Shown: positions 16,701-50,476 of the stretch, piece by piece
How positions within the stretch are numbered: position 1 is the stretch's first letter
How the letters are laid out: every line of letters starts with the position of its first letter
Assembly: GCA_049999805.1 (NCBI GenBank)
Contig: JBNGIO010004579.1
Span: forward strand, 1-64,000
Reading direction: 5' to 3'
Length of the DNA: 64,000 nt
DNA from: Folioceros fuciformis
Taxonomy: Eukaryota
Translations under genes and position numbers: made by a program
Notes under the pieces: generated by a model
Databases searched by the model: none
Seen by the model: only the letters and a program-made list of their open reading frames with translations
What the model was told of the DNA's origin: nothing

Positions 16701-18425
16701 CTACAGTGACAGTTCTGGAGGAAACAGAGTCTGCAGAGCAACAGTTCGGTCCAAAAACAGCAGAGCATCGTACCGGTTGGCCAAGGACGTGGGCACATAA
16801 TTCATTATCCAGTCATGGTTAGGTTTATACACCGCTGTGATGTGTCTATGGCCCCGCATCTCCGCCAAACAGCCTTCCCGGTGCTTGGAGCCGAACACGA
16901 ACGCCAGACGCCCTTCATTCAACCTCCCAGCCACCAAATGGAAGTCTAGTTCCCAGCACATGGACGTACAAGGAGGCACCGTCAAGATCTCCCCGGGACC
17001 ATCCGCGGTCTGCGACGCAAACACGGTGCCCCGGTAAGTGCTGAATCCTACCAACTTCACGGCGTCCCTTCCCAACTCCTCCCTGGCTAATCCCCCTAGA
17101 TTGACATATCCGTCACGACTCAGGCTGCTTGCCTTGTAGTCCCCGATATGCAAGTTGTGCGACCACACAATTCCCTTCGACAGCGGCCCGTAGTGATCAA
17201 GCAGATCCCTGACCGTGTCCATCATATGGTGGACGCGGACGTTCCAATACGTGCCCCCCAGTTTCTGAAACATGCACCGGTAATATTTCTCCACGCTCTT
17301 CACAATACGAGCACTCTGTACTGCTTCCAAGAAAGCAGTAGGCTCGACGCTGTTGCGCCGCTTCTGCAACATCTCCTCAAGCGTGTCCCCTAATCCCTCC
17401 TCGCAGCCCTTTGGATGCGAGATTAGCGACCTGGCGTAGTCCCACTCTTTCCTCAGATAAGGATTGAAACACTCGTATCGAAGCCTCGCCTTCTTGGCTA
17501 GGATTGGATCAATCCGCTCCATCGCCGTCACTGCATCCTTGATCGACTCCGCCAGGGAGAAAATATCCAGGCCGTAAAATCCAACCCGATTCTCAGGACT
17601 GTTAACCTTGGAATTCCATATCCACATCCATGCCACCATCCTCTGTAACTCCGTGTTGCGAAACGTCCACGTCGGCCACCTCCTGCATTTGTGCAACAGC
17701 CGTTTTCAACATTAACCTCCCAGCGACATTGTTCCCGCACATACATGTTTCATTCATCTCTTCAAACTCCGTGACTCCAAATCCACAGGCCTACGAGGAA
17801 ACAAGCCTCACAGAAGACACAAACATACATACTTGAAAGAATGAAGGACCTCGCTGACACTGCTATTTTTATAGCGGTCAGGATGTTCCTCCACCTGGTT
17901 GATGAAGCCGTTCACGTTTTGCGACGGAGGCCACTCCCCTTCAATAGCGATGAATCTGAATCCGTGCTTGTCTATGAGTTCCTGTGAGATCAAACGACGC
18001 CACTCGTAGAATTCGTGCGTGCCGTGAGTCGCCTCTCCCAGCATCACCACTCTGGCGTTCTTCAACTCATTGAACAACTTGCTGAGGTCTGCCACCGATT
18101 TGAACGGTATAGCCAGCTCCGACAATTCCTTCACAAAGTTGGAGTCCGTAGGGTGTTGTGATTCGCTCGCAGCAGCAATCGGAATCTTTGGCTGCTTTCC
18201 TCGGAGCCTAGGGTTCTTTTGGCGCTTTCCTCCAGACCTGAGTTGAGTGCAATGTCCGATCCGCTGCCGCCAGGAACGATCAAAATTCAGCATGCAGGCT
18301 GCAGATGGCTTTCTCTCATGAGATAGTGCACCAGCATAGGACGGAGGCAAGTCACTCCACCCTGGCCCCCTCTTTTGCAACGACGGTGGTACGCAGGACG
18401 ACGACATGTCGATTACACTCGCCAT
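16701..18425 (-). CDS. Erythromycin esterase (EreA/EreB/YbfO) family protein, 2 exons, with a transit-peptide-like N-terminus
   Basis: Motifs ARVVMLGEATHGTHEFY, GFRFIAIEGEWP, RWPTW, FYGLD, WNVRVHHM, IVWSHNLHIGD and RYDALLFLD. Intron 17683-17832 (GTATGT...TGCAG) joins HSFK|RWPTW in frame. Confidence 0.88.
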
Positions 18426-26849: not shown

Positions 26850-28838
26850 TCAGTCGGGCAAGATGGGGAGTCGGCTGACGCTGGTCCCTCCTGTGCTTGA
26901 GAGGTGTTTACCATCTTCCTCACATTCCAGAGCAGGTCCAGCAGAGAGCGATGCTCCACCAGCAGAAGCGTGGGAAGGGAGAATCCTGAGGCGAAGCTTG
27001 GCATCACTCCCAGCCTTCTCCGTGGCCAACTGGTACCCTTCCGCTAGCTTCTCCTGCAAGCCGATAACATCAATGCTCCTAGGGAGCAGCTCCACCGGCT
27101 GACCCCTGGGAATCACGATACGCTCTATGGCCTGCCGCGCTTCCTCCAAGGCATCTATCCTCTCCTCCGACGTGCTACTGCTACCCCGCTCCCTGCTCTG
27201 TTGCTCCGCGTCCCTCTCCCTGAGCGCATCCGACGACACCCACGCATTGCTCACCAACGTCTCCATCCCCAGAATTGCCCGCAGCGCCCTCACCATCTGC
27301 GCCATGGTGTTGGCCTTGATTGCGAAGATAGGAAGCTGCCGAAACTTGGCCATCCCCCGTACCCAAGAGTTCTGCTTCAACTTGCTCCTCAGCGCCAGCA
27401 CGGCGTCCGCAGCTCCGATGTCGTCCGTGAGCTGCACGGCCTTTTCCAGCCCCATTACCTCCACCACCTGCTCTAGCGCCGCCTCCGTCACCTGGTACGC
27501 GAAGAGCTTCAGAGGAGGGTCACCCAAACCCCAACCCTTGCCGCCACGTCCCGCCACATAGTCCTCGTCCTCCAAGCCCTCCTCATCGCTCTCACCATCG
27601 CTGCCGGAGCATCCATCCTGGGAAGCTTGGCTTTCCACGAAAGCAGAAGAAGCAATCACCTGTCCGGTATCCGTCATCCTCCGCACCTCCACCTGGGGAG
27701 TGCGCCCCGCGAGAAGAGCGTCCACGGTGGCCGCCAGGCTTCGATGCACGCGCCACTCGCTCCTTGACGCCATCTCCACCGCGGCCGTGAAGGTCGGCGG
27801 GCCCATCCGCTCCAGCACACTCTTCTGCACACCCCGCCTTCGAGCCTCCTCGTCCCCGAGTGTCACGCTTTGGATGCCCCCCGCCAAGCTCTGAAGGGAG
27901 GGATTCTTGATGAGGTTATCCACAGTCATGCCGTGCGCGGTGGCCACCAGCTGCACTCCCCGCTGCGCGATGGTCCCCGCTGCAGCAGCCTCCCGCTCCG
28001 TCCCAATCTCATCAATCACGATAGTCTGCGGCATATGATTCTCCACGGCCTCAATCATCACGTGGTGCTGCATCTCCACCCTGGCCACCTGCATCCTCCT
28101 AGCCCTCCCAATCCCGGGATGCGCGATGTCCCCGTCCCCTCCAATCTCGTTCGAGGTGTCCACCACCACGACGCGCCTCGCGTACTCGTCCGCCAGCACC
28201 CGCGCCACCTCCCGGATGGCCGTAGTCTTGCCGACCCCTGGGGGCCCCATGAGCAGCAGCGAGCCTCCCCCGGCCACCAAGTCCCGCACCATCTCGGCGC
28301 TCCCCGAGATGGCCCGCCCCACCCGGCATGTGAGCCCGACAATCTTCCCTCCCCTGTTCCGGATCGCGCTCACCCGATGCAGTGTCCTGTCGATTCCCGC
28401 CCGGTTGTCCTCCGCGAAATCCCCGACCACAGCCACGGCTCTTGCCAAATCCTCTGCCGACACCGCCTGCTCCGAAATCGGCCAATCCCCGGACGGGAAC
28501 CTGGCCACCGGCCGCCTCCCGAGGTCCAGCACGATTTCCACCAATTCCTGGATCTCCTCATGCTGCAGCAGGCTGTCCCGCAGCGGCTCCGCCACCAACG
28601 CCACCAGCTGCTCCAGCTCCCCTTCCAATGCGCGTCCTTTCTCTTCCCCTTGCGTTTGAACAAACAGCCTCGTCGTCAAGCTCCGCCCCCCGCCATGGCC
28701 ACACCACCCGGTCACGTGCCGGAGCCGAAGCTCCACGCCCCATCTCCCGCGTCCGCCACAAACACGATCTTGACATCGGACTGGGGTCGTGAAGCCGACG
28801 CGGACGCGCACGCCCGGGGCCACGATCAGGCAATTCAT
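26850..28838 (-). CDS. ycf45: Ycf45 / SpoIIIAA-family AAA+ ATPase with a degenerate C-terminal R3H-like region; intronless
   Basis: EIVLDLGRRP, DNRAGIDRTLHRVSAIRNR, Walker A GPPGVGKTT, VDTSNEIGGDG, Walker B IVIDEIG, ATAHG, and C-terminal VELLPR...RLRILP. Confidence 0.92.
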   Translation of the reverse strand: MNCLIVAPGVRVRVGFTTPVRCQDRVCGGRGRWGVELRLRHVTGWCGHGGGRSLTTRLFVQTQGEEKGRALEGELEQLVALVAEPLRDSLLQHEEIQELVEIVLDLGRRPVARFPSGDWPISEQAVSAEDLARAVAVVGDFAEDNRAGIDRTLHRVSAIRNRGGKIVGLTCRVGRAISGSAEMVRDLVAGGGSLLLMGPPGVGKTTAIREVARVLADEYARRVVVVDTSNEIGGDGDIAHPGIGRARRMQVARVEMQHHVMIEAVENHMPQTIVIDEIGTEREAAAAGTIAQRGVQLVATAHGMTVDNLIKNPSLQSLAGGIQSVTLGDEEARRRGVQKSVLERMGPPTFTAAVEMASRSEWRVHRSLAATVDALLAGRTPQVEVRRMTDTGQVIASSAFVESQASQDGCSGSDGESDEEGLEDEDYVAGRGGKGWGLGDPPLKLFAYQVTEAALEQVVEVMGLEKAVQLTDDIGAADAVLALRSKLKQNSWVRGMAKFRQLPIFAIKANTMAQMVRALRAILGMETLVSNAWVSSDALRERDAEQQSRERGSSSTSEERIDALEEARQAIERIVIPRGQPVELLPRSIDVIGLQEKLAEGYQLATEKAGSDAKLRLRILPSHASAGGASLSAGPALECEEDGKHLSSTGGTSVSRLPILPD

Positions 28839-28987
28839 CTCCCATCGTCTCTCGTTCCTATCACATGGCATCATGTATCCATCCATCCTATGTCAACCAC
28901 ACCATGGGCCCATCCCATTTTCTCCCATATCATGGGACATGCCTTTATGAAATGTGATGGCGACTCGCATATCCAGTTTCAGTGTGC

Positions 28988-30131: not shown

Positions 30132-32681
30132 ATGGCTGGAGCCACCACCCTCACTCCCTCCGCCTCCCTGCAGCTGCAAGGGCTATGTCTGGAGACGTCT
30201 AAGAGGGCTTTGGCGTCTCGGGCCAGTGCCGCCGGGTGGCCTAACCCGGCCCTGTCGCTCTCCTCGTCATCGTCCTCCTGTTTCGGTGGCGAGGCTGGGA
30301 AGGTGGGCCTGAGCGTTTCTAGGCCCGCGTTCCTGACGCCCGGGCAGAAATGTCCGGACGTGCTGAAGTCTGCCATGTGTTTTCAGAGGGACGGGCTGTT
30401 GAAGGGGATTGAGGATTTTGACTCCTCCTCCTTCGCTGCGAAGGGGTCCAGGGGGGTCCACACGCAAGGGGCGTACCAGTCGTCGGCGGTGGTATCTGCA
30501 GAGTACCTGGTAGCAGAGGACGAGCAGACCAATGTGAGGGATGGCAGGTTCAGCAGCGCCTCCAGTGGTCTCTTCTCCTACGATGTCAGGGGTGAGCCTG
30601 TTGGAGCTTCGGAGGCTGCAGATGCTAGGGACCCACTTGTCATCGCCAATCTGGGCATTTCTGACACCATCGTCAAGGCTTTGTCTGCCCGTGGTATCGA
30701 GAAGTTGTTTCCTATCCAGAGCGCGGTGTTGGAGCCCGCCATGCGGGGCAAGGACTTGATAGGCCGGGCCAAGACGGGGACCGGGAAGACGCTAGCTTTT
30801 GGGATACCCATCCTCCACAAGATTTCCGAGGAGAATGAGCAGAACAGATTAGCCAAAAGGATGGGTCGCACTCCCCGGGCTCTTGTGCTTGCACCAACCC
30901 GAGAGCTTGCCAAGCAGGTGGAGCGGGAGTTCAAGGAGTCAGCTCCGCACCTGAGCACGTGCTGTGTCTACGGAGGTGTGTCCATCATAGAGCAAAAGCG
31001 ATCTCTTGATCGAGGCGTGGACATTGTTGTCGGCACACCGGGGCGAGTGATCGACCTGCTTAATCAGGGTAACCTCAAGCTGCAAGATTGTCGCTTTATC
31101 GTCCTGGATGAAGCAGATCAGATGCTTGCTGTTGGCTTTGCGGAGGATGTGGAAAGGATCCTGGAGTCTGCGCCGACTGTGAGGCAGACCATGTTGTTTT
31201 CCGCCACCATGCCTGCATGGGTCCTTAAGTTGTCCCGGCGGTATCTGAAGGAGCCCACGACCATTGATCTGGTGGGGGACAACGATGAAAAGCTTGCCGA
31301 GGGCATCAAGATTAAGGCGGTGGGGGTTGGTGGAACCATGAAGAGGACGGTCTTGAATGACCTCATCACAGTCTACGGCAAAGGTGGGAAAACCATTGTG
31401 TTCACCCAGACTAAGCGGGATGCTGATGAGGTTGCGATGGTTATGAGTCGGATATTGGGTTGTGAGGCCCTTCACGGTGACATCTCCCAGCACCAGCGTG
31501 AGAAGACTTTGAACGGGTTCCGTTCAGGAATATTCTCTGTCCTGGTCGCCACAGATGTGGCTGCTCGAGGTCTGGATATTCCCAACGTCGATCTCGTCAT
31601 TCACTACGAAGCACCTAATGACTCTGAGACCTTCGTCCACCGCACGGGAAGGACAGGCAGGGCTGGGAAAACTGGTACTGCCATCCTGATGTATGCGAGC
31701 CAGCAGCAACGAACACTGAGAACTATCGAGCAGGATGTGGGATGCAAGTTTGAGTATATCGCACCTCCAACCTTGTACGAAGTATTGAGGTCGTCCGCCG
31801 ACCAAGCGGAAGACCAGATCAGGAAAGTGCATCCTGAATTGAAGACTGTCTTCCTGGAGACTGCAGAGAAACTTTTGGCAGAGCAGGGTTCTGGGGCACT
31901 CGCAGCTGCGATTGCACACATGAGCGGGTACACGCAACCTCCTGCCCCGCGCTCTTTGATCACCCATGAGGAAGGGAAGGTCACCTTGCGTCTCATCCGC
32001 ACCGGACGACCCATTCGCAGTCTCATCAATGCGCGAGCTGTCACAGGAGCCGTGTCGAGCATCTTCCCTGAGGCGGCATACCAAATGGGTAAAATCCGTG
32101 TGATCTCAGAACCTGATGTTGACGGGGCTGTTTTTGATGTGCCTGAGGAGTTGGCCAAAGAATTCCTGTCGAAGCCTACTGCAGCTGGCGAGACTGTGGA
32201 CATGCCTAAAGTGCTTCCCAGGCTGGAGGATGATGAAGAGGACATGAGATCGCGCGACTTTGGAAGGTTCTCAAGNNNNNNNNNNNNNNNNNNNNNNNNN
32301 NNNNNNNNNNNNNNNNNNNNNNNNNNNNNNNNNNNNNNNNNNNNNNNNNNNNNNNNNNNNNNNNNNNNNNNNNNNGGTGGCTATGGATCCTCTTATGGAT
32401 CCCCCAGTGGTGGTTACGGGTCCTCTGCCGGTGGCTATGGATCTCCTAGTGGTGGAGGTTATGGTGGCTATGGATCTGGTAGTGGAAGTGGTGGCTACGG
32501 GTATGGGAGTGGATCTGGGAGCACAAGGTCTGACGGTCTGGTAAGGAGAGGCGGGGGAGATTCTTATGGTGGCAGCAGTGGAGGTTCTAGCAGGGGTGGC
32601 TCGTTCGGTGGTGCCTGCTATGTATGTGGGCAGCCTGGTCACCGTCCCTCAGACTGCCCTTCAGGTGGTAGTAGGCGGTGA
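30132..32681 (+). CDS. RH3: Plastid DEAD-box RNA helicase RH3-like (GUCT domain, Gly/Ser-rich tail, CCHC knuckle)
   Basis: Q motif (LFPIQ), [30 protein letters not shown] and [10 protein letters not shown], then a GUCT-like region and [15 protein letters not shown] 100-N gap lies at 32276-32375. Confidence 0.93.
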
Positions 32682-38373: not shown

Positions 38374-39525
38374 TCACAAGACAATTTGACTAGCCATTGG
38401 ATCAAGTATAAAAGGCGGCCCTATATGGGCATCACAATTCATAGAACTCCATATATTTTTGGAGGTATGGTACGTGATAAGTCGAGTGATCATTTCTCCT
38501 GAAGTATCTTGCTTGTTACGGAAAGAAACATAAATACAAATGTAAGGCTCTAAAACTTTGACAGCGCAGGCAAACTCGTTTACATTGCAAGACCTAAAAG
38601 ACTCTTCCCAGAGTTTCAAGGGCATAGTGATCTCAGGTCCCGAATTGTCCACCTTCGAGATCGAGATGGTTCTGGAGGCACTCGAGACATGGACGCTGTA
38701 ACGAGTCCCCGGAATCGGCGAGGCCACGGAACCGGGGCTTTGAATAGTCTGTCTCGGGATCAGAACCTGCCTGGCACAGAAGGACGGGGGAGCCGGGGTC
38801 CAGGTACCGGATCCCGATTCATATTCAAACCCTGCACCGTCGTGAATCAAGGCTCGTAGTAGGTAGCTGTTGGAAGCGAAATCCGCGTCCAATGTCAGAT
38901 GCAACATTCTGCACACCAGGTTTCTGTTCATGTCCACCACTCTACCCCGCTCGTAGGGTATGCCTGGCAGCTCCTTCCACTCTCTTGTCATAGCGTTCCA
39001 AATCACCAATGGTTCGAGGATCATCATATGCAATGGGGTGCCCCGACCCGCAGAGAAGCAGGCCAGGCCTCCTGATGCTGCACGCAGGTAAGGCGCGCAA
39101 GAGGAGAAAGGTAACTCCAAACTGACCAGGCTCCATCGTGGATCGAGATCTGGTGTTGTTACATTGCGGCCTACTGTGTCCGTCGCAGGACCTTGGATCG
39201 CTAGTGGAACTATGGAATTCCGCGTCCACTCCCGCAGGAACACGGGGGACGACAGAAGCCGGTGCCAAGCTTTGCACACGGTATGACACCTTAGCACCGG
39301 GGCCAGAGGCAGCCATTCCAACACACTCTCCAACAATTCTGGAGGTAGATTTCTCCAAATTTTGTCATCCATCTCCACCGTACCACTGGCACTAGCACTG
39401 GAGTCGCTGGCCTTTGCACTAGAGTCGCTGACTCCAGCACTGGAGTTGCTAGTCCTAGCACCCGAGTTCTCATCCGAGGGCACCCCCCAGGCATATTGCA
39501 CCAAACAAAAATTTGCGGGCCGCAT
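38374..39525 (-). CDS. F-box protein, intronless (start uncertain)
   Basis: F-box IWRNLPPELLESVLEWLPLAPVLRCHTVCKAWHRLL, followed by AASGGLACF and LVIWNAMTREWKELP, typical of plant F-box proteins. Confidence 0.85.
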   Translation of the reverse strand: MRPANFCLVQYAWGVPSDENSGARTSNSSAGVSDSSAKASDSSASASGTVEMDDKIWRNLPPELLESVLEWLPLAPVLRCHTVCKAWHRLLSSPVFLREWTRNSIVPLAIQGPATDTVGRNVTTPDLDPRWSLVSLELPFSSCAPYLRAASGGLACFSAGRGTPLHMMILEPLVIWNAMTREWKELPGIPYERGRVVDMNRNLVCRMLHLTLDADFASNSYLLRALIHDGAGFEYESGSGTWTPAPPSFCARQVLIPRQTIQSPGSVASPIPGTRYSVHVSSASRTISISKVDNSGPEITMPLKLWEESFRSCNVNEFACAVKVLEPYICIYVSFRNKQDTSGEMITRLITYHTSKNIWSSMNCDAHIGPPFILDPMASQIVL

Positions 39526-41191: not shown

Positions 41192-43846
41192 TCAATGCCT
41201 GTCACCACAGGAGCACGAGCCATCAACAAAACGGTGCACACGGTGTGCATCTCTGACCACAATCTCCCGCCTTTCCAGCCTAGACATGATCTTTGTGCCG
41301 CTGTGGCAATCGTTACACATCCGGAGATTCTTGGTAACTAGCAAGGGTGTGCCATCTGGGGTTGCCAGCAGACCATATGCCAATGCCAATTTCTCAGCAT
41401 GCCCACACAATGCGTCTTCCTTTTCCGCCTCTGACACCGCCTTCGTCACCAGCTCTGTGTGTGGCACATGGCCACCTTCCTCCTTCAGCCGCAAGTTCAC
41501 GCTCATGAGCTTAGAAGATATGTCATCCCTTGCTTCTCCCACTCTGAACTCGTGCACCTGGTTTTCTACTTCAATCCACGCCTTTGCAGGCTTCTTCTTG
41601 GCGCCTGCAAGCTTACGCAACTTTTCTATCTCCTGGGCATCTGCCCATAGACCTGCGCTTGAGTACATCGTTGCCAAGAGTGCATACGCTGATGCATTTT
41701 CAGGCTCCAGGGCAATGACACGCTCAAAACAGCGTCGTCCGCGCTCCAGGTCACCATGGCTCTTGCAGGCACTGAGCAAGCAAATCCAACCCACAACCTT
41801 ATCCTCAAATGGCATACTGCATAGCATGTCTTCCGCTTCGTCTAGATGACCAGAACGCCCAAGCAGATCCACCATGCAGACATAGTGAAGCGTTGTAGGT
41901 GCAATCCCACGGTCATCCACCATTATCTGGAAGAAACGCCGCCCCTCATCTACCTGGCCCAAATGACTACACGCCACCAAAAGGCATAGAAAAGTGGCAC
42001 CATCTGGTTCGATGCCTTGTTCTTGCATCTTCCGGAAACAGTCGAGGGCCATTTTCCCATCATTTTGTTGAGCACAGCCTTTAAGAAGCGCCGTCCATGT
42101 TGCCACATCCCTCGTAGGCAGCCTGTCAAACACTGCGCAAGCCTCCTCTAATCTCCCACACTTGACATACATATCCACCAGGCAGTTGCCAATGACCAAG
42201 TCAGGCTCCAGTCCTTGTTCGTTGATCTCAGCGTGAACCTGCCTACCTTGATTGAGAGCGCCCACACTGGCACAGGCTTGAAGGAGGCAGACGAATGTCA
42301 CATTATTTGCAAGAGTGAGGCCCTCCTTTCGCATGTCGGCATACAGGCTGAGGGCTTCTTGCCCAAGGCCATTTTGAGCATATGCTGCAATCATGGTAGT
42401 CCACAGCACCACATCTCTGGTGCACAGCCCGTCGAACACACGCCGTGCAATCTCCAAGCTCCCACATTTGGCATACATATCAACCAAGCAGCTGCCGATA
42501 ACCACATCACCCTCCAGTCCCCGTTCCTTAATCTGCCCATGAAGCTCCATTCCCTGTTGCAAGTCTCGGATGCTAGCACAGGCCCGGATGAGGGAGGCAA
42601 ACGTAGAAGGACTGGGCATGGTGCACTCCTGTTCCATTCGAGCATGAAGACCAAGAGCTTCCCTACCCAGGCCATGCTCGACATATCCTGTCAGCATGGC
42701 ATTCCACGTTGCCACATCTTTGTGAGGCATTGTGTCGAACACTCTCTGAGCGTCCTCCACACTTTCACACTTTGCATACATCTCTATAAGGCAATTACCC
42801 ACAACCACATCCGCTGTTACTCCACTTTCTTGAATGTGAACATGAAGCTGCTTGCCGCGATGTAGATCTCTCACAAGGCCACAAGCTTTCAAAACGCTGG
42901 CAAACGTGAAATCATCCGGAGTTACACCCTCATGTAGCATACTTGCATATAAGCTCAGAGCTTCTTGACCAAACCCATGCTCCGCATATCCTGAAATCAT
43001 GGCCGTCCAGGTGACCACATTCCTCTGGGACAAGCTGTTGAAGACCCCGCGTGCTTCATCCAGCTCCCCACATTTCGCATACATGTCTACCAGACAGCTA
43101 CCGACGAATACATCCGGGACATCGCCACTTCGCAGAATATCAGCATGTACATTCTTCCCAGAAGCTAGATCGCCTGCAATAGAACACACCTTCAGGACTA
43201 CCACATACACATAGTTGTTGGGTTTGATGCCCGACGTCCGCATCCGATGATACAGTTCTACAGCCTGGGTGAACTGGCCATGCTCAGCAAAACCTGAGAT
43301 GATGGAATGCCACATGAACATGTCTGGTGCAGTAACAACCGAAAATACCTGCATTGCTTCCTCCAGTTTCCCATGAGAGGCATACATGCGAATGATGTGG
43401 TTAGCCAGGAACGTGTTCGACTCATACCCACTTCTAAGAGAGAGGGCATGCACACGCTTGCCAAGATCCAAATTCCTGTCTGCGATACACCTCTTGAGAA
43501 CACGATAGAAGTGAGTGTGGGAAACGAACGCCGATCGCTGCACCACTAGGTCCAACGCCTCAACCACATCACAGAGCCTTCCCTCCTCAAAAAATCCCCT
43601 CAAGGAAAGATCCAGCTGCTCCGGCTCCAGGTCCTTGCCACCACCTCCCTTAACCCTAACCTTGATCCTTGGTGCCTGGCCTCGCTGCACACTAGCCAAG
43701 GCACTCACCCAGGGATTGTGCCCGACAGATGTGACCTTGGTAGCCGCACCAGCTGTGGCAAACGGTCTGGAAATAGTCTTGCAGCCCTCTCCAGAAAGCA
43801 GGAGCAGCAATCGAAGCCAAGTCACCATACCGCCCCGGCCTCTCAT
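41192..43846 (-). CDS. PLS-class PPR protein with E1/E2 and a KP-type DYW domain ending DRH (candidate U-to-C editing factor)
   Basis: P-L-S repeats, ACSHLG, KKKPAKAWIEV (KPAxA), HAEKLA, KNLRMCNDCH and terminal CSCGDRH. Confidence 0.93.
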   Translation of the reverse strand: MRGRGGMVTWLRLLLLLSGEGCKTISRPFATAGAATKVTSVGHNPWVSALASVQRGQAPRIKVRVKGGGGKDLEPEQLDLSLRGFFEEGRLCDVVEALDLVVQRSAFVSHTHFYRVLKRCIADRNLDLGKRVHALSLRSGYESNTFLANHIIRMYASHGKLEEAMQVFSVVTAPDMFMWHSIISGFAEHGQFTQAVELYHRMRTSGIKPNNYVYVVVLKVCSIAGDLASGKNVHADILRSGDVPDVFVGSCLVDMYAKCGELDEARGVFNSLSQRNVVTWTAMISGYAEHGFGQEALSLYASMLHEGVTPDDFTFASVLKACGLVRDLHRGKQLHVHIQESGVTADVVVGNCLIEMYAKCESVEDAQRVFDTMPHKDVATWNAMLTGYVEHGLGREALGLHARMEQECTMPSPSTFASLIRACASIRDLQQGMELHGQIKERGLEGDVVIGSCLVDMYAKCGSLEIARRVFDGLCTRDVVLWTTMIAAYAQNGLGQEALSLYADMRKEGLTLANNVTFVCLLQACASVGALNQGRQVHAEINEQGLEPDLVIGNCLVDMYVKCGRLEEACAVFDRLPTRDVATWTALLKGCAQQNDGKMALDCFRKMQEQGIEPDGATFLCLLVACSHLGQVDEGRRFFQIMVDDRGIAPTTLHYVCMVDLLGRSGHLDEAEDMLCSMPFEDKVVGWICLLSACKSHGDLERGRRCFERVIALEPENASAYALLATMYSSAGLWADAQEIEKLRKLAGAKKKPAKAWIEVENQVHEFRVGEARDDISSKLMSVNLRLKEEGGHVPHTELVTKAVSEAEKEDALCGHAEKLALAYGLLATPDGTPLLVTKNLRMCNDCHSGTKIMSRLERREIVVRDAHRVHRFVDGSCSCGDRH

Positions 43847-44369
43847 GGGAGGCGTCCGGGGTCCAATTCATGAACCCGAGATATACGTCGGACGATGCCG
43901 TCTTCAACTTGGTCCCTGATGTGGCTTGCCTCACCTGGAGTTCATCCCGCAGAACAGGCAAGATGAAGGTGGTACAGAAGATCTGAACCGTGCTGCCATT
44001 GCTGACTACTCGCAGAACTCTCCTGCTGGCATTTACGGATCTCAAAGCTGCACAGAACTACGAGCTGGTGTTCACTACAAGCCATGGAAGCTCGTTAGCT
44101 CAGAAGCTTGCTATCAAACAAGGTGCACGACCCACACCAAGATGCCCAAAGATCTGCAGGGGAGTCAGTAACTCCTTTCCCTTGCATTCATCCAACGAAA
44201 CAAGCACAAACAATCTGCGTACAAGCCTCATATCAGCACCAGCACTGCGGGGTATTAGGAAAGGAAACTCCATCGCCCAGATGGCGACAAGGACGGGATA
44301 TCCGCTTTGATTTTGTCGCATTCCATTCATCACGATCGAACCCGGTGGGAGGCGTCTCGGCAGCGGAGC

Positions 44370-47300
44370 ATGGCCATGGCATTGGCCAAAGTGTTGCCAT
44401 GCCCTGTTTCACAGCCGACGTTGGGTCACCAGCTGGATCAGCATCCGAGCTGCGGATTTTGCCATACCGACAAGCGACGCTGCGTTCCATCTGAGACGGG
44501 AGTGTGCAGGGCCTACACCCGGCAGCAGGCCCTTGAGGCTGCAGAGACCGGGGAGGAGCGGCTGTGGCACCAATTCTTCGTGGATCCCAGGCAATGGTGG
44601 GACAACAGGGCGGACAAGCCCAGTCCCCGCCATCCCGACTTCAGGCACAAGGTATCCAGGCAGGTGCTGTGGCTCAATAGCCGGCTGAAGCCGGAATGGG
44701 TGGATTCGCAGCTGGCCAAGTGGGATGCAGGTGCAGGGGATGGGGAAAAGGAGGCAATGGTGGAGAGGCTGAGCAGGATATGCGAGGATGCGGAGCTGAG
44801 CGATGCTGTGGAAGCCTTGAACGTCCTGGTGCTGCGGGGATGTCGCATACCTGACTCTGTTCTGTATCGTTTGCTGAAGAGGTGCTCGGGAGAGAAGGAC
44901 CTGGTGCTGGGTAGGAAAGTGCATTCCATTGCCAGAAATGGCGGGTACGAGAGCGACGCATTCGTGGCAACTCACATTTTGGGGATGTATGCTGCTCATG
45001 GCAAGCTGGAGGACGCAGTGCAGGTATTCGGGAAAGTGCAGGTACCCAATGCCTACATGTGGTCTTCCATCATTCTGGCACATGCCCGGCTGGGACGGCC
45101 TTCGGAGGCCATCGGCTTTTACAGGCAGATGCGGAACTCGGGCGTGAAGCCGGACAACCACATCTTTGTGGCAGTTCTGAAGGCGTGCGCATCTGCCACG
45201 GACTTGGTTGCAGGCAAAGAGGTGCATATTGATATTTTGGGCAGTGATGTCAAGTGTAATACCTTCGTTGGCAGCAGCCTGGTGAACATGTATGCCAAAT
45301 GCGGGAGCTTGGAGGAGGCTCGCACCGTTTTCGATGCACTGGCCACAAAGACGGTGGTTACATGGAATGCTGTGATTGCAGGCTACGCCCAACAGGGTCA
45401 TCGGGAAGAAGTTTTTCATTTGTACGATAGGATGCAAATTGATGGCTTACAAGCCAATAAGGTTACATTCGTGTGCTTACTCCAGTCGTGTGCTACTTTG
45501 GAAGCTTTGAATCAAGGGAAGCATCTTCACACAGAGATTCAGCAAAGAGGACTAGATACTGATCTAGTTGTGGGCAATTGCTTGGTGGACATGTATTCTA
45601 AATGTGGTAGCGTGGAGGATGCTCGCAGAGTTTTTGACCATCTACCCACGAGAGACGTGGTGACATGGACTGCGTTGATCTGGGGATATGCAAATCAAGG
45701 AATGGCTCAAGAAGCTCTAAGTCTGTATGCTAGTATGCAGCAGGAGAGCCTGATCTTGGGTGATCGAGTTACGTATGTGTGCCTGCTGAAAGCTTGTGCC
45801 AGCATCGGGGCCCTGCATCAGGGGAGGCAGCTTCATATGCAGATTGAGCTGGAAGGGCTTGCAACTGATGTTGGTATAGGTAACTGCCTGGTGGACATGT
45901 ACTCTAAATGCGGGAGCGTAGGAGATGCTCGCCAAGTGTTTGATTGTTTGCCCACGAAAGATGTGGTGACATGGAATGCCATGATTGCAGGATATTCTCA
46001 GCGTGGGCTTGGTAAAGACGCGCTTGATCTGTATGACAGGATGCAGCTGTTGGGTTTGACTCCAGCCGACCGTATTACGTTTCTCTGCCTCCTTCAAGCA
46101 TGTGCCAGTGTGGGAGCATTGCATCAGGGGAAGCAGCTTCATGCACAGATCCGTGATAGGGGGCTGGAAGCCGATCCTTCTGTCTGCAGCAGTCTGGTGG
46201 GCATGTATGCCAAATGTGGAAGCTTGGGGGATGCTCGTGCTTTGTTTTCCGAATTGCCAACAAGAGACCTGGTGACGTGGAATGCCATGATTGCTGGATA
46301 CACTCAGCAGGGGCTCGGTCGTGAAGCTTTAGCTCTGTATGCCAGTATGCAGCAGGAGGGCACCACCCCCAATCACCTGACATTTGTGTCCATCCTTCAA
46401 GCGTGTGCCAGTGTGGGAGCGTTGCATTATGGGAGGGAGCTTCAGGCACAGATTCAAAAACTGGGCTTAGAAGGTAATGTAATGGTTGGAAACTGCACGG
46501 TGGACATGTACTCTAAGTGTGGGAGCCTGGAGGAAGCTCGCCGAGCAGTTGACAGGATGCCCGTACGGGATGTGGTTACATGGAGTGCTCTGCTCAACGG
46601 CTATGCCGAACATGGCGATTGCCAAAAGGCAAAGCAGTGCTTTGATGAGATGTGTCAGCAGGGCGTGGAGCCTAATGAGTCCACCTTTGTCTCCCTACTT
46701 GTGGCATGCAGTCACGCAGGTCTGGTGGAGGAGGGCCAGCGGTACTTCAAAATGATGGTGGAGGACCACGGGATTTTACCCACAGACGATCACTACAACT
46801 GCATGGTGGACCTTCTTGGGAGATCAGGGCACCTGGATGAAGCGGAGTCGTTTCTGCAGAGTGAGCCATTCCAGAACCGTGTGGTGGGCTGGACTTCACT
46901 GCTGAGTGCCTGTAAGAACCATGGTGATGCAGAGCGTGGAAGGCGATGTTTCGAGCATCTTACAGAACTGGAACCTGGAAACGCCTCAGCATATGTCTTA
47001 TTGGGTACCATCTACGCGAATGCTGGCAGGTGGGAAGACGTGGGCACAATCGAGAGGCTTAGAAAGTCGTCACGGGCCTGGAAGAAGGCGGCGAAGGTGT
47101 GCATCGAAGTCCAGCACGAGGTGCACGAGTTTACTGTGGGGGAGGAGAGGGCTGACATCTCAGAGAAGCTCAGGAGTGTGAGCAAGAGGCTGAAGGAGCA
47201 AGGTGGGCATGTGCCGCAAACTCAGTTGGTGCTGAGATCAGTATCCGAACAGGAGAAGCAAGATGCCTTATGTGGCCATGCAGAGAAGCTGGCCTTGGCG

Positions 47301-47486
47301 TATGGACTCCTGAACACTCCTGATGGCACTCCTTTGCTAGTCACTAAAAACCTTCGAATGTGCGACGACTGCCATAGCAGCACCAAGATCATGTCCCGCC
47401 TTGAACAGCGAGAGATTATAGTTCGAGATGCACACCGTGTGCACCGTTTCCTGGATGGAACGTGTTCATGTGGGGACAGACATTGA
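44370..47486 (+). CDS. PLS-class PPR protein with an N-terminal OSB-type PDF motif and a KP-type DYW domain ending DRH
   Basis: LWHQFFVDPRQWWDNRADKPSPRHPDFRHKVSRQVLWL, then PLS repeats, WKKAAKVCIEV, HAEKLA, RMCDDCH and CSCGDRH. Confidence 0.93.
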   Translation: MAMALAKVLPCPVSQPTLGHQLDQHPSCGFCHTDKRRCVPSETGVCRAYTRQQALEAAETGEERLWHQFFVDPRQWWDNRADKPSPRHPDFRHKVSRQVLWLNSRLKPEWVDSQLAKWDAGAGDGEKEAMVERLSRICEDAELSDAVEALNVLVLRGCRIPDSVLYRLLKRCSGEKDLVLGRKVHSIARNGGYESDAFVATHILGMYAAHGKLEDAVQVFGKVQVPNAYMWSSIILAHARLGRPSEAIGFYRQMRNSGVKPDNHIFVAVLKACASATDLVAGKEVHIDILGSDVKCNTFVGSSLVNMYAKCGSLEEARTVFDALATKTVVTWNAVIAGYAQQGHREEVFHLYDRMQIDGLQANKVTFVCLLQSCATLEALNQGKHLHTEIQQRGLDTDLVVGNCLVDMYSKCGSVEDARRVFDHLPTRDVVTWTALIWGYANQGMAQEALSLYASMQQESLILGDRVTYVCLLKACASIGALHQGRQLHMQIELEGLATDVGIGNCLVDMYSKCGSVGDARQVFDCLPTKDVVTWNAMIAGYSQRGLGKDALDLYDRMQLLGLTPADRITFLCLLQACASVGALHQGKQLHAQIRDRGLEADPSVCSSLVGMYAKCGSLGDARALFSELPTRDLVTWNAMIAGYTQQGLGREALALYASMQQEGTTPNHLTFVSILQACASVGALHYGRELQAQIQKLGLEGNVMVGNCTVDMYSKCGSLEEARRAVDRMPVRDVVTWSALLNGYAEHGDCQKAKQCFDEMCQQGVEPNESTFVSLLVACSHAGLVEEGQRYFKMMVEDHGILPTDDHYNCMVDLLGRSGHLDEAESFLQSEPFQNRVVGWTSLLSACKNHGDAERGRRCFEHLTELEPGNASAYVLLGTIYANAGRWEDVGTIERLRKSSRAWKKAAKVCIEVQHEVHEFTVGEERADISEKLRSVSKRLKEQGGHVPQTQLVLRSVSEQEKQDALCGHAEKLALAYGLLNTPDGTPLLVTKNLRMCDDCHSSTKIMSRLEQREIIVRDAHRVHRFLDGTCSCGDRH

Positions 47487-48358
47487 CTGGCAAATGCACG
47501 TCCGCACGAAGATGTGGCTTGTCCGCCCTTCATCCAAGGTTGATATCTCAGCGCGCGTTCTTCCAACTCTCTTTTAGCCTCCACTTCGCAGACTGAAGGA
47601 ACAAAGGGCAGGGAGGAAGGAACGCTCACTGAAAGGGGTAGAGTCGGTCCGACCCCCATTAGAGCCAGACGGTATGCAACTGCATCCAGGCCTCCTTGGT
47701 TCCGAGACGCTCGCCGAAGGCCAAGCACCTGATAGCCAAAGGGCCAACACAATCCATGGATGCCTGCGCGTTTTCCGAACGGTATGTGTCCGCCGTGGCA
47801 CAAAGGGTCAATCAGTTCTTCCGACTCCCCTAGCCCATTGCATAATGTGCCAGGTTTGCGAATTTCCTCATAGGTGACTGTAGAAACATGAGTGGCTGCC
47901 TTGCTTGGAGATGCCGAGATCCGCGACCTTCGCATTCAGGTCCGGTCGTGGATGGTATTTGAGAGACAAAGATGGACAAAGACGATGGCCTTGCTTCCAC
48001 CTTATCGGAGGGAGTTCTTCCCTCCCGCCTTAGAGATGGTCCTTGAGTGTGTCAATTGTGGACGAATTCGAAGACGAGGATAGCACTTCTGTCATCCACG
48101 GGACACCCCGACAACTTCACTCCCGACAGAATCCTGACCTTTTTGACAAATTGCTGCGCGAGGTCAAGGGAGCTTCTCTGTTGCTCACCCTTAGTGTGCC
48201 GTGCCGTCAGCGAGCTGTCCAGAGTAGAACCCTACCGAAACCGCCGACTCCGTGACTGGGAGACGGCAAGAAGTGTGCTTGCCTTGGCGTACAAGTGTGC
48301 TGTACACTCGCCTTACTTGTTGTACGCTTCGCCCAACCGGCAGGAAGGCTTGGTCATA

Positions 48359-50476
48359 TCACTGCCGGTCTTTGCAGGAGCATGCGCCGCATGAGAAGCG
48401 GTGCACCCGGGTTGCGTCTCTAACTACGATTTCGCGTTTCTCGAGACGTGACATTATCTTGATGCTACCATGGCAGTAGTTGCACATTCGAAGGTTTTTG
48501 GTGACCAACAACGGGGTGCCACCGGGAGTGTTGAGCAGACCAAAGGCTATGGCCAGTCTTTCAGCATGTCCACACACGGCATCTTCCTTCTCACGCTCGC
48601 GGATGGGCTTCAGACCCAGCTGCGTCCATGGGGCACGGCGTCCTTCGTCCACCAACCTGGTACTCACGCTCGACAACATGTCCGACGAGGTGTCGGACTG
48701 CTCCTCTCCTACGATAAACTCGTGCACCTTGTTCTTCACTTCTATGCATGCCCTGGCCGGCTTCTTCCAGGCGCCTGCAGACCTTCTCAGAATCTCGGTT
48801 TGCTCCACGTCCTCCCACCGCCCAGCTTTTTCGTAGATGTTGCCCAACAGGACGTAGGCCGATGCTTTCTCAGGTGCCATTTTCACTATTCGGTCAAAGC
48901 ATCTTCTTCCTCGATCTGCATCATTGTGGGCTTTGCAGGCACTGAGCAGAGATGTCCAGCCCACCACGTTATCCTGGAGCGGCATAGTGTGCAGCACCTC
49001 TTCCGCATCATCCATACAACCTGCCCGTCCAAGGAGGTCGACCAGGCAGTTGTAGTGATGGTCGGTGGGCTCAATGCCATGCGCTTTCATCATCCTAAAA
49101 TACTCCCGGCCCTCATCCACCAGCCCAGCATGACTGCATGCCACGAGCAGACTGATGAAAGTACTGCCATCAGGATCCACGCCTTCACGCTGCATCTCTA
49201 AGAAACACTGTCTTGCCCTTTCTACATCGCCATTTTCAGCATAACCACTGAGGAGGGCATTCCATGTCACAAGACTCTTGACAGGCATTCTGTCAAACAC
49301 TGCGCGAGCCTCTTCCACGCTCGCACATTTCGCATACATGTCCACCAGGGTGTTGCCCACAACCACGTCCACCTCCAGCCCGATCTGCCGGATCAGTTTG
49401 TGAAGTTCCTTGCCCTGCTGCAAGGCTGCCACTCTACCACATGCTTGAAGGAGGCACACGAATGTGACAGTGTCTGCAGGAGCTAAGCCCTCCCCTTGCA
49501 TACACGCATACAGATCGAGAGCTTCCTGGCCCCGCCCATGCTGAGCGTACGCTCCCAACATGGCAGTCCATGTCACCAGATTCCTGCTCTCCAGTCTGTC
49601 AAACACCCTCCGAGCATCCTCCAAGCTGCCGCACTTGGCATACATGTTTACCAGGCTGCTGCCCACGAAGCTGTTACACCTGACACCACTGCCCAGAATA
49701 TCAGCGTGCACCTCTTTGCCTGCAACCAAGTCCGTAGCAGATGCACACGCTTTAAGAACTGCCATAAAGATATGGTTGTCCGGCTTCACACTCAACGCCC
49801 TCATCCGCCTGTACCAAGCGATGGCCTCCCTGGGCTGCCCTTGCCGGGCATGCTCCAGAATGATGCAACACCACATATGGGCATTGGGCACCTCCACTTC
49901 CCCAAACACCTGCACTGCATCCTCCAGCTTCCCATGCGCAGCATACATCCCCATGATGTGCGTTGCCACAAATGCATTGTTCCTGTACCACCCCTGCCGG
50001 GCAACAATGGAATGCACCCTCCTACCCAGCTCCAGGCCCTTCTCCCCAGAACACCTCTTCAACAGACGATACAAAACAGAGTCATGCACCCTACAGCCCC
50101 TTTGCACCAGCACGTCCAAGGCCTCCACAGCCTCCCCCAGCTCTCCGTGTTCGCACCTCCTGCTCAGTCTCTCCACCATGGTCTCCCTCTCCCCATCGCC
50201 TGCAGCAGCATCCCACCTAGCCAGCCGCAAATCCACCCACCCGGGCTTCACCCGGCTGCTGAGCCACAGCAACTGCCTGATACCCTTGTGCCTGAAGTCG
50301 GGATGTCGGGGACTGGGCTTCTCCGCCCTGTTTCCCCACCACTGCCTGGGATTGACAAACCAGTCCTGCCATAGCCTCTCCTCCCCGGTCTCAGACGAAA
50401 CGCCTCCTCGCTTCCCAATATGGAATAATCCACAGCCCGGCTGAGACGGCAGCCTTTCGGCCACTGCCACGGCCAT
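48359..50476 (-). CDS. PLS-class PPR protein with an N-terminal OSB-type PDF motif and a KP-type DYW domain ending DRQ
   Basis: LWQDWFVNPRQWWGNRAEKPSPRHPDFRHKGIRQLLWL, a short PLS array, WKKPARACIEV, HAERLA, RMCNYCH and CSCKDRQ. Confidence 0.92.
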   Translation of the reverse strand: MAVAVAERLPSQPGCGLFHIGKRGGVSSETGEERLWQDWFVNPRQWWGNRAEKPSPRHPDFRHKGIRQLLWLSSRVKPGWVDLRLARWDAAAGDGERETMVERLSRRCEHGELGEAVEALDVLVQRGCRVHDSVLYRLLKRCSGEKGLELGRRVHSIVARQGWYRNNAFVATHIMGMYAAHGKLEDAVQVFGEVEVPNAHMWCCIILEHARQGQPREAIAWYRRMRALSVKPDNHIFMAVLKACASATDLVAGKEVHADILGSGVRCNSFVGSSLVNMYAKCGSLEDARRVFDRLESRNLVTWTAMLGAYAQHGRGQEALDLYACMQGEGLAPADTVTFVCLLQACGRVAALQQGKELHKLIRQIGLEVDVVVGNTLVDMYAKCASVEEARAVFDRMPVKSLVTWNALLSGYAENGDVERARQCFLEMQREGVDPDGSTFISLLVACSHAGLVDEGREYFRMMKAHGIEPTDHHYNCLVDLLGRAGCMDDAEEVLHTMPLQDNVVGWTSLLSACKAHNDADRGRRCFDRIVKMAPEKASAYVLLGNIYEKAGRWEDVEQTEILRRSAGAWKKPARACIEVKNKVHEFIVGEEQSDTSSDMLSSVSTRLVDEGRRAPWTQLGLKPIREREKEDAVCGHAERLAIAFGLLNTPGGTPLLVTKNLRMCNYCHGSIKIMSRLEKREIVVRDATRVHRFSCGACSCKDRQ

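What the first reader, a model, noticed from the sequence alone, without database searches (positions are those of the whole stretch)
44562..44715. OSB-type ssDNA-binding PDF motif fused to a KP-type PPR-DYW RNA editing factor
Seen: between the transit peptide and the first PPR repeat lies LWHQFFVDPRQWWDNRADKPSPRHPDFRHKVSRQVLWLNSRLKPEWV, in the same uninterrupted ORF as the PPR array and DYW:KP domain. Established: this matches the PDF motif (LW..FF..P..WWDNR..K..P..PDF.HK....LW) of plant organellar OSB proteins, which binds ssDNA; PLS-DYW factors normally have only a transit peptide before the PPR array. Inference: this is a PDF + PPR + zinc-deaminase-fold editor. It might be tethered to nucleoid ssDNA or R-loops for co-transcriptional U-to-C editing, use PDF as an extra RNA clamp, or act on ssDNA. 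I am not aware of a description of this architecture, but could not search the literature.
Basis: partly seen in the sequence, partly recalled or inferred. Interest (0 to 1): 0.85.

Follow-up and report, generated by a model that had tools for sequence, protein, structure and literature searches.

The report
OSB-type PDF domain on PPR editors
Two neighbouring plant organelle RNA-editing genes carry, ahead of their RNA-binding repeats, a genuine copy of the small DNA-binding "PDF" domain otherwise known from organelle DNA-maintenance proteins, and the same fusion turns up unannotated in mosses, lycophytes and ferns.

Summary
Window 44562-44715 (+) encodes the quoted peptide inside one intact ORF (44370-47486, 1038 aa): presequence, PDF motif, PLS-type PPR array, E motif, DYW deaminase.

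The motif is a true homologue of the OSB PDF motif. An HMM built only from 324 PDF motifs of 186 OB-fold (OSB-architecture) proteins hits 2 of 1308 six-frame ORFs of the window, at E 2.4e-20 and 7.8e-17. BLASTP to an Arabidopsis OSB1-group protein gives 49% identity, E 7e-16. The second hit is the neighbouring PPR-DYW gene (48359-50476, minus). A third clustered paralogue has no PDF.

The fusion is not unique to this genome and not tied to DYW:KP. 13 of the 150 best database representatives are PDF+PPR proteins, named ones from Sphagnum, Diphasiastrum, Selaginella, Ceratopteris, Adiantum and Pteridium. Most complete ones end in E-type C-termini and one in canonical DYW:PG.

Pfam has no PDF model, and eight literature searches found no description of PDF+PPR. 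AlphaFold predicts a compact domain (pLDDT 90) with no solved structural relative.

Function is inferred: an auxiliary single-strand nucleic-acid binder at the 5' end of the PPR tract. I rate it a new variant of a known kind, of moderate to high interest.

The parts
44370..47486 (+). Gene A: intact intron-less CDS (1038 aa plus stop) = presequence - PDF - PLS PPR array - E - DYW (KP-class, DRH end)
44370..44552 (+). N-terminal presequence (aa 1-61), putative organelle targeting peptide
   Evidence: AF2 pLDDT <50 for aa 1-49. dN/dS 0.74 with indels against paralogue B. The start MAMALA / MAVAVA is shared by both paralogues. Targeting itself was not tested.
44553..44726 (+). PDF domain (aa 62-119), the finding
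   Evidence: AF2 pLDDT 89.9. dN/dS 0.34.
44787..46919 (+). PLS-type PPR array (approx. aa 140-850)
   Evidence: Pfam PPR, PPR_1, PPR_2, PPR_3. Helical repeats from aa 143 in the AF2 model. Boundaries are approximate.
46920..47087 (+). E motif (aa 851-906)
   Evidence: Pfam PF20431, E 2.1e-13
47205..47477 (+). DYW deaminase domain (aa 946-1036): HAE, CDDCH, CSC, ends GDRH. The KP box upstream reads K-A.
   Evidence: Pfam PF14432, E 3.6e-36; alignment
48359..50476 (-). Gene B: paralogous PDF-PPR-E-DYW gene (705 aa from the first ATG), KP box KKPARACIEV, ends KDRQ
50210..50383 (-). PDF domain of gene B (74% identical to that of gene A)
41192..43846 (-). Gene C: clustered KP-type PPR-E-DYW paralogue WITHOUT a PDF motif (comparator). 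Its DYW domain is 85% identical to gene A's.

Best explanation
SHOWN: Gene A (44370-47486) and its neighbour gene B encode PLS-class PPR RNA-editing-type proteins with an E motif and an intact DYW zinc-deaminase domain of the KP class (hornwort-like 'DRH' end). Between a fast-evolving, predicted-disordered presequence and the first PPR repeat, each carries one copy of the about 55-aa PDF domain. This domain is homologous to the ssDNA-binding PDF motif of plant OSB proteins. The N-terminal PDF plus PLS-PPR architecture is an old, recurrent one in non-seed land plants (moss, lycophytes, ferns and this genome), with 1-3 PDF copies and E, DYW:PG or DYW:KP ends.

INFERRED: the PDF domain is kept in the mature protein as an auxiliary, sequence-unspecific binder of single-stranded nucleic acid. 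PPR tracts bind RNA with their N-terminus towards the 5' end (established knowledge). The model joins PDF to the first PPR through a continuous helix. I therefore think it most likely grips the single strand just 5' of the PPR footprint. That would add affinity or residence time for the target transcript, while the PPR code sets specificity and the DYW domain does the pyrimidine exchange. Identity and architecture: about 0.95. This particular role: about 0.45.
For: Identity:
- A profile of the 2 window motifs finds 713 representatives at E<=1e-3 among 1.84 billion, 226 at <=1e-10.
- These include named OSB proteins (P0104, P0106), and P0017, which is 91% identical to Raphanus 'protein OSB1, mitochondrial'.
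- They also include proteins with a Pfam SSB domain N-terminal to the motifs (P0027, P0046 above cut-off).
- The reverse test with an OSB-only HMM gives E 2.4e-20 and 7.8e-17 for 2 of 1308 ORFs.
- BLASTP to an Arabidopsis OSB1-group protein gives 25/51 identical, E 7e-16.

Conservation:
- In an 88-sequence alignment W9, W19, R23, P32, F34 and W53 are invariant.
- dN/dS between paralogues A and B is 0.34 for PDF against 0.74 for the presequence.
- A contig of a related organism covers 44000-45292 at about 90% identity, with a 3-nt (in-frame) deletion at 44522.

Folded domain:
- AF2 gives pLDDT 89.9 for aa 58-125.
- In the 350-aa model aa 1-49 score <50, PDF scores 90-95, and helix 110-140 runs on towards the PPR helices.

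Recurrence: 13 of the 150 best representatives are PDF+PPR, from named taxa.

Nucleic-acid binding by PDF: reviews citing Zaegel 2006 state that the PDF motif of AtOSB1 suffices for ssDNA binding (PMC6963530; PMC4166229; passages read).
Against: - No binding, localisation, expression or editing data exist for any PDF-PPR protein.
- Recombinant AtOSB1 and AtOSB2 are reported to prefer ssDNA over RNA (PMC4166229 passage). This favours the DNA-tether rival over an RNA clamp.
- The continuous-helix junction rests on a 17-sequence alignment, with pLDDT dipping to 74 at aa 121-130. I could not inspect coordinates or PAE.
- A paralogue in the same cluster (gene C) lacks PDF.
- 6 of 15 predicted Diphasiastrum isoforms lack PDF. 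So the domain is dispensable for at least some family members.
- Cleavage of the motif with the transit peptide is made unlikely by conservation but is not excluded experimentally.
Confidence: 0.5

Rival explanations
1. Nucleoid tether. PDF binds ssDNA, namely the displaced non-template strand of transcription bubbles or R-loops, or replication and recombination intermediates. It would concentrate the editing factor at organelle nucleoids so that editing happens co-transcriptionally.
For: PDF of AtOSB1 is reported sufficient for ssDNA binding, and OSB1/2 prefer ssDNA to RNA (review passages). OSB1 is genetically linked to mitochondrial R-loop levels (PMC8330923 passages). The PDF consensus residues are all kept in the PPR-borne copies.
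Against: There is no direct evidence. One PDF copy may bind weakly. The predicted rigid, in-line attachment to the PPR solenoid fits continuation of the RNA path at least as well as a tether. Most organellar PPR editors work without such a module.
Confidence: 0.27
2. Protein-protein or assembly module. PDF mediates oligomerisation, or docking to OSB or other nucleoid or editosome proteins, rather than nucleic-acid binding in this context.
For: Tandem PDF arrays with no other recognisable domain exist (66 of 275 PDF proteins had neither a PPR nor an OB match, many with 4-11 repeats). This shows the unit works in varied contexts. AtOSB2 is reported to be tetrameric (PMC6963530 passage).
Against: The invariant positions are aromatic or basic (W, W, R, F, W), which is typical of single-strand binders. 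No interaction data exist and no complex prediction was run.
Confidence: 0.12
3. The DYW domain acts on ssDNA presented by PDF, so that DNA rather than RNA is the substrate.
For: Only the co-occurrence of an ssDNA-binding motif and a deaminase-fold domain in one chain.
Against: Most complete PDF-PPR proteins seen have no DYW domain at all (6 of 7 outside the window). So PDF cannot be there mainly to feed a deaminase. PPR tracts are RNA readers, and DYW:KP and DYW:PG activities described in the papers read are on RNA.
Confidence: 0.03
4. Chance resemblance, annotation or assembly artefact, or dead relic (pseudogene, or a motif removed with the transit peptide).
For: No RNA holder was listed for the locus, so transcription is unproven.
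Against: E-values of 1e-17 to 1e-20 against an independent OSB profile. Two intact ORFs of 1038 and 705 codons. dN/dS 0.34 in PDF and 0.11-0.20 downstream. The same locus is present in independent assemblies of the same and a related organism. The same architecture occurs in six named genera.
Confidence: 0.03

Closest known systems
[quoted passage not shown]
   Same: The about 50-55-aa motif has the LW..(F)F..P..WWDNR..K..P..PDF.HK....LWL....P.WV signature. It is 49% identical to an Arabidopsis OSB1-group protein and gives a full-length match to an OSB-only HMM. It lies in a nuclear-encoded protein with an N-terminal presequence.
   Different: There is no OB-fold/SSB domain (0 of the PPR proteins matched the OB profile). 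PDF is N-terminal rather than C-terminal. It is followed by a PPR-E-DYW editing module.
DYW:KP PPR proteins (candidate U-to-C editors; hornwort 'DRH' subgroup)
   Same: PLS array, E motif and a DYW domain with HxE, CxxCH and CSC. Ala after the catalytic His where the DYW:PG protein P0091 has Ser. C-terminal DRH (subgroup name from PMC9478123 passages).
   Different: It carries an extra folded N-terminal PDF domain. Gene A has K-A instead of the K-P pair. Published designs and descriptions that I read treat the N-terminus as presequence plus PPRs only.
PPR proteins with accessory nucleic-acid-binding domains (e.g. maize PPR4 / PpPPR_3 with an N-terminal RRM)
   Same: A general single-strand binding domain is placed N-terminal to a sequence-specific PPR tract. 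The list of accessory domains (RRM, LAGLIDADG, SMR, NYN, CBS, SAP) is from PMC9459714 passages.
   Different: Those are P-class proteins with an RRM. Here the protein is a PLS-class editing factor and the domain is PDF, which is on neither that list nor the fusion survey of PMC13386178 (0 mentions).
PDF+PPR proteins already in public databases (e.g. Selaginella XP_024517303, Sphagnum CAM6033764, Diphasiastrum KAJ7517631 and KAJ7570437, Ceratopteris KAH7429238, Adiantum KAI5076972)
   Same: N-terminal 1-3 PDF motifs followed by a PLS PPR array.
   Different: They are annotated only as hypothetical or generic PPR proteins. They end in E-type C-termini or DYW:PG. None seen has the KP-class DYW of the window genes.

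Membership tests
PDF motif/domain (as in OSB proteins) | About 50-aa motif with the conserved Pro-Asp-Phe signature and flanking W/R/K positions | tested here: met
   PDF is present (HPDFRHK). W9, W19, R23, P32, F34 and W53 are invariant across 88 aligned proteins including the window's.
PDF motif/domain (as in OSB proteins) | Significant profile similarity to PDF motifs of bona fide OSB (OB-fold + PDF) proteins | tested here: met
   HMM from 324 motifs of 186 OB-fold proteins: E 2.4e-20 and 7.8e-17, the only 2 of 1308 ORFs hit. BLASTP 49% identity, E 7e-16 to an A. thaliana OSB1-group protein.
PDF motif/domain (as in OSB proteins) | Binds single-stranded DNA | not testable with these tools
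   Known for AtOSB1 only from review passages citing Zaegel 2006. The original paper is not held.
OSB protein family | Central OB-fold/SSB-like domain with C-terminal PDF motif(s) | tested here: not met
   No SSB/OB Pfam hit in genes A or B. No PPR protein matched the OB profile (PPR&OB = 0). These are therefore PDF-bearing proteins, not OSB proteins.
PLS-class PPR-E-DYW RNA editing factor | Tandem PPR (P/L/S) repeats followed by E motif(s) | tested here: met
   Pfam PPR E 1.2e-91, PPR_2 6.7e-95, E_motif 2.1e-13.
PLS-class PPR-E-DYW RNA editing factor | C-terminal DYW deaminase domain with HxE and CxxC zinc/catalytic residues | tested here: met
   PF14432 E 3.6e-36. HAE, CDDCH and CSC are aligned with Sphagnum DYW:PG protein P0091.
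PLS-class PPR-E-DYW RNA editing factor | Edits a specific organellar RNA site | not testable with these tools
   No organelle genome or transcriptome of this organism was available. The PPR code was not matched to targets.
DYW:KP subclass | Lys-Pro pair in place of the Pro-Gly box at the N-terminal edge of the DYW domain | tested here: not met
   Gene A reads KKAAKVCIEV (K-A). Genes B and C read KKPA (K-P). The PG protein P0091 reads KEPG. Gene A is assigned to the KP class by the other features and by 85% DYW identity to gene C. It is a divergent member, not a textbook one.
DYW:KP subclass | Altered residue after the catalytic His, and a non-DYW C-terminal triplet (hornwort subgroups DRH and GRP) | tested here: met
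   HAE against HSE. Ends are GDRH (A, C) and KDRQ (B) against DYW in P0091. Criteria from PMC11845758 and PMC9478123 passages.
DYW:KP subclass | U-to-C editing activity | not testable with these tools
   Needs an editing assay.

The most novel reading that the evidence does not exclude
PDF-PPR proteins physically couple RNA editing to the organelle nucleoid. The PDF domain would hold the editor on the displaced single DNA strand of transcription bubbles or R-loops, the same substrate that OSB proteins police, so that C-to-U and U-to-C editing in hyper-editing non-seed plants is co-transcriptional. This would be an ancestral land-plant arrangement, shared by moss, lycophytes, ferns and a hornwort-like genome, that seed plants lost and replaced by MORF/ORRM-type helpers. 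PDF itself would be an older single-strand-binding repeat that also forms long arrays in Symbiodiniaceae dinoflagellates.
Probability: 0.2. Interest if true: 0.85.

Novelty: new variant of a known kind. Interest (0 to 1): 0.6.

Why it matters
PPR editing factors are usually described as a transit peptide, a PPR tract and C-terminal E/DYW domains. Accessory domains listed for PPR proteins (RRM, SMR, LAGLIDADG, NYN, CBS, SAP) do not include PDF.

A conserved, folded, single-strand-binding domain at the 5'-proximal end of PLS editors is found in the plant lineages with the heaviest editing and with U-to-C editing. It suggests an unrecognised layer of substrate capture, or a link between editing and nucleoid DNA.

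It is directly testable with existing E. coli and human-cell editing assays run with and without PDF. It could also be a useful add-on for synthetic C-to-U and U-to-C editors.

It widens the PDF domain beyond OSB proteins, and apparently beyond green plants. It also explains why annotation pipelines miss the domain: there is no Pfam model.

Tried and rejected
- **Word-index protein searches.** Queries with the motif (1 hit of 3 candidates) and with P0002 residues 60-125 (1 of 6) returned only P0003. The index is too strict for this short motif, so it gave no census of PDF-PPR proteins.
- **First HMMER job.** The job with alignment A1 failed because the profile exceeded 1200 positions. It was rerun with A2.
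- **Whole genome.** None is held, so I could not count PDF-PPR genes or test KP versus PG co-occurrence in this organism.
- **Expression.** No RNA holder was listed. The run guessed to be RNA (X3) also covers the upstream intergenic stretch at the same depth, so it behaves like DNA. This says nothing either way on transcription or splicing.
- **Solved structures.** The PDB sequence search with the PDF profile gave 0 hits at E<=10. Foldseek against PDB had a best E of 6.3. VIA-align against 48,161 chains had a best Z of 3.6 and none >=5. No solved relative was detected, which does not prove a new fold. The PDB search with A3 only returned PPR and SSB chains through the flanking columns.
- **Motif tree.** The tree of 390 motifs over 54 columns is unresolved. 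The PPR-borne motifs need 10 label changes, but starred branches force only 1. Single versus multiple origin of the fusion cannot be decided.
- **Earlier scan notes.** None were found.
- **Papers not seen.** Zaegel 2006 is not held. Gutmann 2020 and Gerke 2020 were not read, and supplements are closed. A mention of N-terminal PDF there cannot be excluded.
- **Complex prediction.** Not run, because no specific protein partner is claimed.
Full report
**1. What is at the coordinates**

It lies in a single open frame whose first ATG is at 44370 and whose stop ends at 47486, giving 1038 aa (P0002).

Pfam finds many PPR repeats (PPR E 1.2e-91, PPR_2 6.7e-95). It also finds an E motif at aa 851-906 and a DYW_deaminase domain at aa 946-1036 (E 3.6e-36). 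It finds nothing for the 51-aa motif at E<=1.

A six-frame pattern scan found the motif twice in the window. The second copy is in the neighbouring gene on the minus strand. That gene runs 48359-50476 from its first ATG (705 aa), with the motif at 50210-50383, and it is also PPR-E-DYW.

A third PPR-E-DYW gene lies at 41192-43846 (minus). It sits head-to-head with gene A across about 520 bp and has no such motif.

**2. Is it the OSB PDF motif?**

A profile of the two window motifs was run against 1.84 billion cluster representatives. It gave 713 proteins at E<=1e-3, 226 at <=1e-10 and 19 at <=1e-30. Many of them hold 2-13 matched stretches.

Several of the listed hits tie to OSB proteins:
- P0017 (E 2.6e-36) is 91% identical to 'protein OSB1, mitochondrial' of Raphanus.
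- P0104 and P0106 carry OSB names.
- P0027 and P0046 have a Pfam SSB domain above cut-off N-terminal to the motifs, which is the OSB architecture. P0004 and P0052 have the same domain below cut-off.

BLASTP of the window motif against the 261-aa Arabidopsis thaliana member of that OSB1 group (P0189) gives 25/51 identities, E 7e-16.

I searched all 1308 six-frame ORFs of at least 30 aa in the window. Exactly two hit: gene A (68.3 bits, E 2.4e-20, HMM positions 2-56 of 57) and gene B (57.1 bits, E 7.8e-17). One caveat is that the OSB set was itself gathered with the window motif as bait. Its members are, however, independently named OSB or carry SSB domains.

In an 88-protein alignment the positions W9, W19, R23, P32, F34 and W53 are invariant, and L8, F13, P16, W20, D21, K26, D33, H36, K37, L43, W44 and P51 are nearly so (numbering of the 68-aa window segment). 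The window copies keep all of them. Homology to the OSB PDF motif is therefore established. Genes A and B are not OSB proteins, because they have no OB fold.

**3. Is it part of the mature, functional protein?**

Between paralogues A and B, Nei-Gojobori dN/dS varies along the gene:
- 0.74 for the presequence (31 alignable codons, with indels)
- 0.34 for PDF (58 codons)
- 0.20 for the first PPRs
- 0.11 for E-DYW

AlphaFold2 with the 88-sequence alignment folds aa 58-125 into a compact helix - three short strands - helix unit, with mean pLDDT 89.9.

A 350-aa model from a 17-sequence alignment gives pLDDT <50 for aa 1-49 and 90-95 for PDF. It shows a helix at aa 110-140 (dipping to 74 at 121-130) that runs on towards the PPR helices, which score above 90.

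So the motif behaves as a selected, folded domain downstream of a disordered presequence. This argues against removal with the transit peptide but does not prove retention.

Contigs of the same organism, and of a related one at about 90% identity with a 3-nt deletion at 44522, cover the locus. No run on record as RNA was found, so transcription and the absence of splicing are not shown.

**4. How widespread is the fusion?**

Among the 150 best representatives, 13 also match the PPR part of gene A. They are P0003, P0035, P0074, P0091, P0094, P0107, P0113, P0114, P0121, P0131, P0132, P0143 and P0151. In all of them PDF is N-terminal, in 1-3 copies.

Named sources are:
- Diphasiastrum complanatum (P0132, P0114, P0143)
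- Selaginella moellendorffii (P0131, annotated 'PPR At3g09040-like')
- Ceratopteris richardii (P0151)
- Adiantum capillus-veneris (P0094, P0035)
- Sphagnum compactum (P0091)
- Pteridium aquilinum (P0074, P0121)

The rest come from unnamed assemblies.

Of the 7 that look complete, 6 end in an E-type C-terminus. One (Sphagnum) ends in a canonical DYW:PG domain (EPG...HSE...CSCRDYW). None has a KP-class domain.

Only the top 150 of 713 hits could be inspected, so these are minimum figures. PDF is thus an accessory of PLS-class PPR proteins in general in non-seed plants, not a KP-specific feature. The combination with a KP-class DYW was seen only in the window.

A motif tree is too poorly resolved to decide on single or multiple origin. 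The window motif's nearest neighbours are other PPR-borne motifs: gene B, P0003, P0113 and the fragment P0061.

**5. The DYW class**

I aligned the three window genes with the Sphagnum DYW:PG protein. All three window genes have HAE where the Sphagnum protein has HSE, and all keep CxxCH and CSC. They end in GDRH (A, C) or KDRQ (B).

Passages of PMC11845758 and PMC9478123 define DYW:KP by three features: the KP-for-PG box, changes around HxE, and a variable C-terminal triplet. They name a hornwort 'DRH' subgroup. Genes B and C have K-P, while gene A has K-A at that box. Gene A's DYW domain is 85% identical to gene C's. I treat gene A as a divergent KP-class member, and I take the source to be a hornwort-like plant. 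The latter is an inference.

**6. Cluster evolution**

Gene A is mosaic. Its aa 1-330 (presequence, PDF, first PPRs) are 74-78% identical to gene B but only 45-51% identical to gene C. Its DYW domain is 85% identical to C and 68% to B.

Synonymous divergence between A and B rises from about 0.4 at the 5' end to about 1.9 in E-DYW. This points to recombination or gene conversion among clustered paralogues, with the presequence-PDF-first-PPR block moving as a unit.

**7. Mechanism**

*Shown:* the architecture, the homology, the conservation and the predicted fold.

*From the literature (review passages only):* the PDF motif of AtOSB1 suffices for ssDNA binding, and OSB1/2 prefer ssDNA to dsDNA and RNA. 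OSB1 restrains R-loops at some mitochondrial repeats.

*Inferred:* PDF adds sequence-unspecific single-strand binding at the N-terminal end of the PPR tract, which is the 5'-proximal end. I favour an RNA clamp 5' of the PPR footprint (about 0.45), because the domain is modelled in line with the solenoid. The nucleoid ssDNA or R-loop tether is a serious rival (about 0.27), because OSBs are reported to prefer DNA. A protein-interaction role (about 0.12) and ssDNA as the deaminase substrate (about 0.03) are less likely. The last is weakened by the 6 of 7 complete PDF-PPR proteins that have no DYW domain.

**8. Comparison with what is known, and novelty**

Pfam has no PDF model, which explains the generic annotations. 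The literature searches gave the following:

| Search | Result |
|---|---|
| 'PDF motif' + pentatricopeptide | 1 paper, where the two terms are unrelated |
| OSB + PDF + PPR + DYW | 0 papers |
| PDF motif/domain + 'organellar single-stranded DNA' | 5 papers |
| OSB1, OSB2, OSB, DYW, 'PLS-type' and 'organellar single-stranded' (at least 3 of the 6) | nothing relevant in the 20 papers listed |
| pentatricopeptide + OSB + fern | nothing relevant in the 15 papers listed |
| Anthoceros + DYW + N-terminal + U-to-C | nothing relevant in the 12 papers listed |

The remaining two searches gathered background rather than testing novelty: 'PDF motif' + OSB1 + ssDNA (3 papers) and 'DYW KP', U-to-C and hornwort.

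Three papers were checked by term search:
- The 2026 OSB-evolution paper has 0 mentions of PPR (PMC13393729).
- The 2026 kingdom-wide survey of editing-factor domain fusions has 0 mentions of OSB, PDF or single-stranded DNA (PMC13386178).
- The Physcomitrium PPR overview lists RRM, LAGLIDADG, SMR, NYN, CBS and SAP as accessory domains (PMC9459714).

I could not read Zaegel 2006, Gutmann 2020, Gerke 2020 or any supplements.

My verdict is a real, apparently undescribed accessory domain on a known kind of protein. The example proteins are already in public databases, and the function is untested.

**9. Structure search**

No solved relative of the PDF domain was detected by sequence, by Foldseek or by VIA-align (best Z 3.6).

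Noticed in passing
P0005, P0006, P0007, P0008, P0014 (hits): Proteins made of 7-11 tandem PDF motifs with no OB fold or PPR. P0006 and its 5 other named cluster members are from the dinoflagellate Effrenium voratum, and P0007 is from Cladocopium sp. (Symbiodiniaceae). The repeats keep the LW..LF..W.DYR..K..FPDFK..LWL.S..P.WV signature. [quoted passage not shown]
   Followed up: partly
window 41192-50476: Three KP-class PPR-E-DYW genes lie within 9.3 kb (minus, plus, minus). Gene A is a mosaic: its 5' third is closest to gene B and its DYW domain is closest to gene C. dS between A and B is about 0.4 at the 5' end and about 1.9 at the 3' end. This suggests gene conversion or recombination among clustered editing-factor paralogues.
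   Followed up: partly
window 47082-47111 (aa 905-914 of gene A): Gene A has K-A (KKAAKVCIEV) where its paralogues have the class-defining K-P (KKPA...). The effect on activity is unknown.
   Followed up: no
P0132/P0153-P0155 and P0114/P0156-P0165 (Diphasiastrum complanatum isoform sets): Of 15 predicted isoforms of two PDF-PPR loci, 6 lack the PDF motif, 1 has a truncated one, and the rest have 1 or 2. In that lycophyte the PDF-coding part may therefore be alternatively included. These are gene models only.
   Followed up: no
window 44496-44743: Summed contig depth over the PDF-coding bins is about 4.5-7.6 times the single-copy flank in the best DNA holder (39.6-66.5 against 8.72). This hints at several more PDF-coding paralogues of at least 85% identity in that genome. 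Contig depths are a weak measure.
   Followed up: no
P0042 (Coptis chinensis), P0052 (Striga hermonthica): PDF motifs occur in long gene models together with a kinesin motor, or under an 'interactor of constitutive active ROPs' name. These may be merged gene models rather than true fusions.
   Followed up: no
window 7877-9112, 16701-17639, 26850-28886, 30132-32681, 38374-39525: Other long ORFs include a pseudouridine-synthase-like protein, an erythromycin-esterase-family protein, an AAA/PTPase-domain protein, a DEAD-box helicase with a GUCT domain and an F-box protein. This is a compact, intron-poor nuclear plant region at about 51% GC, and the window contains 110 N.
   Followed up: no
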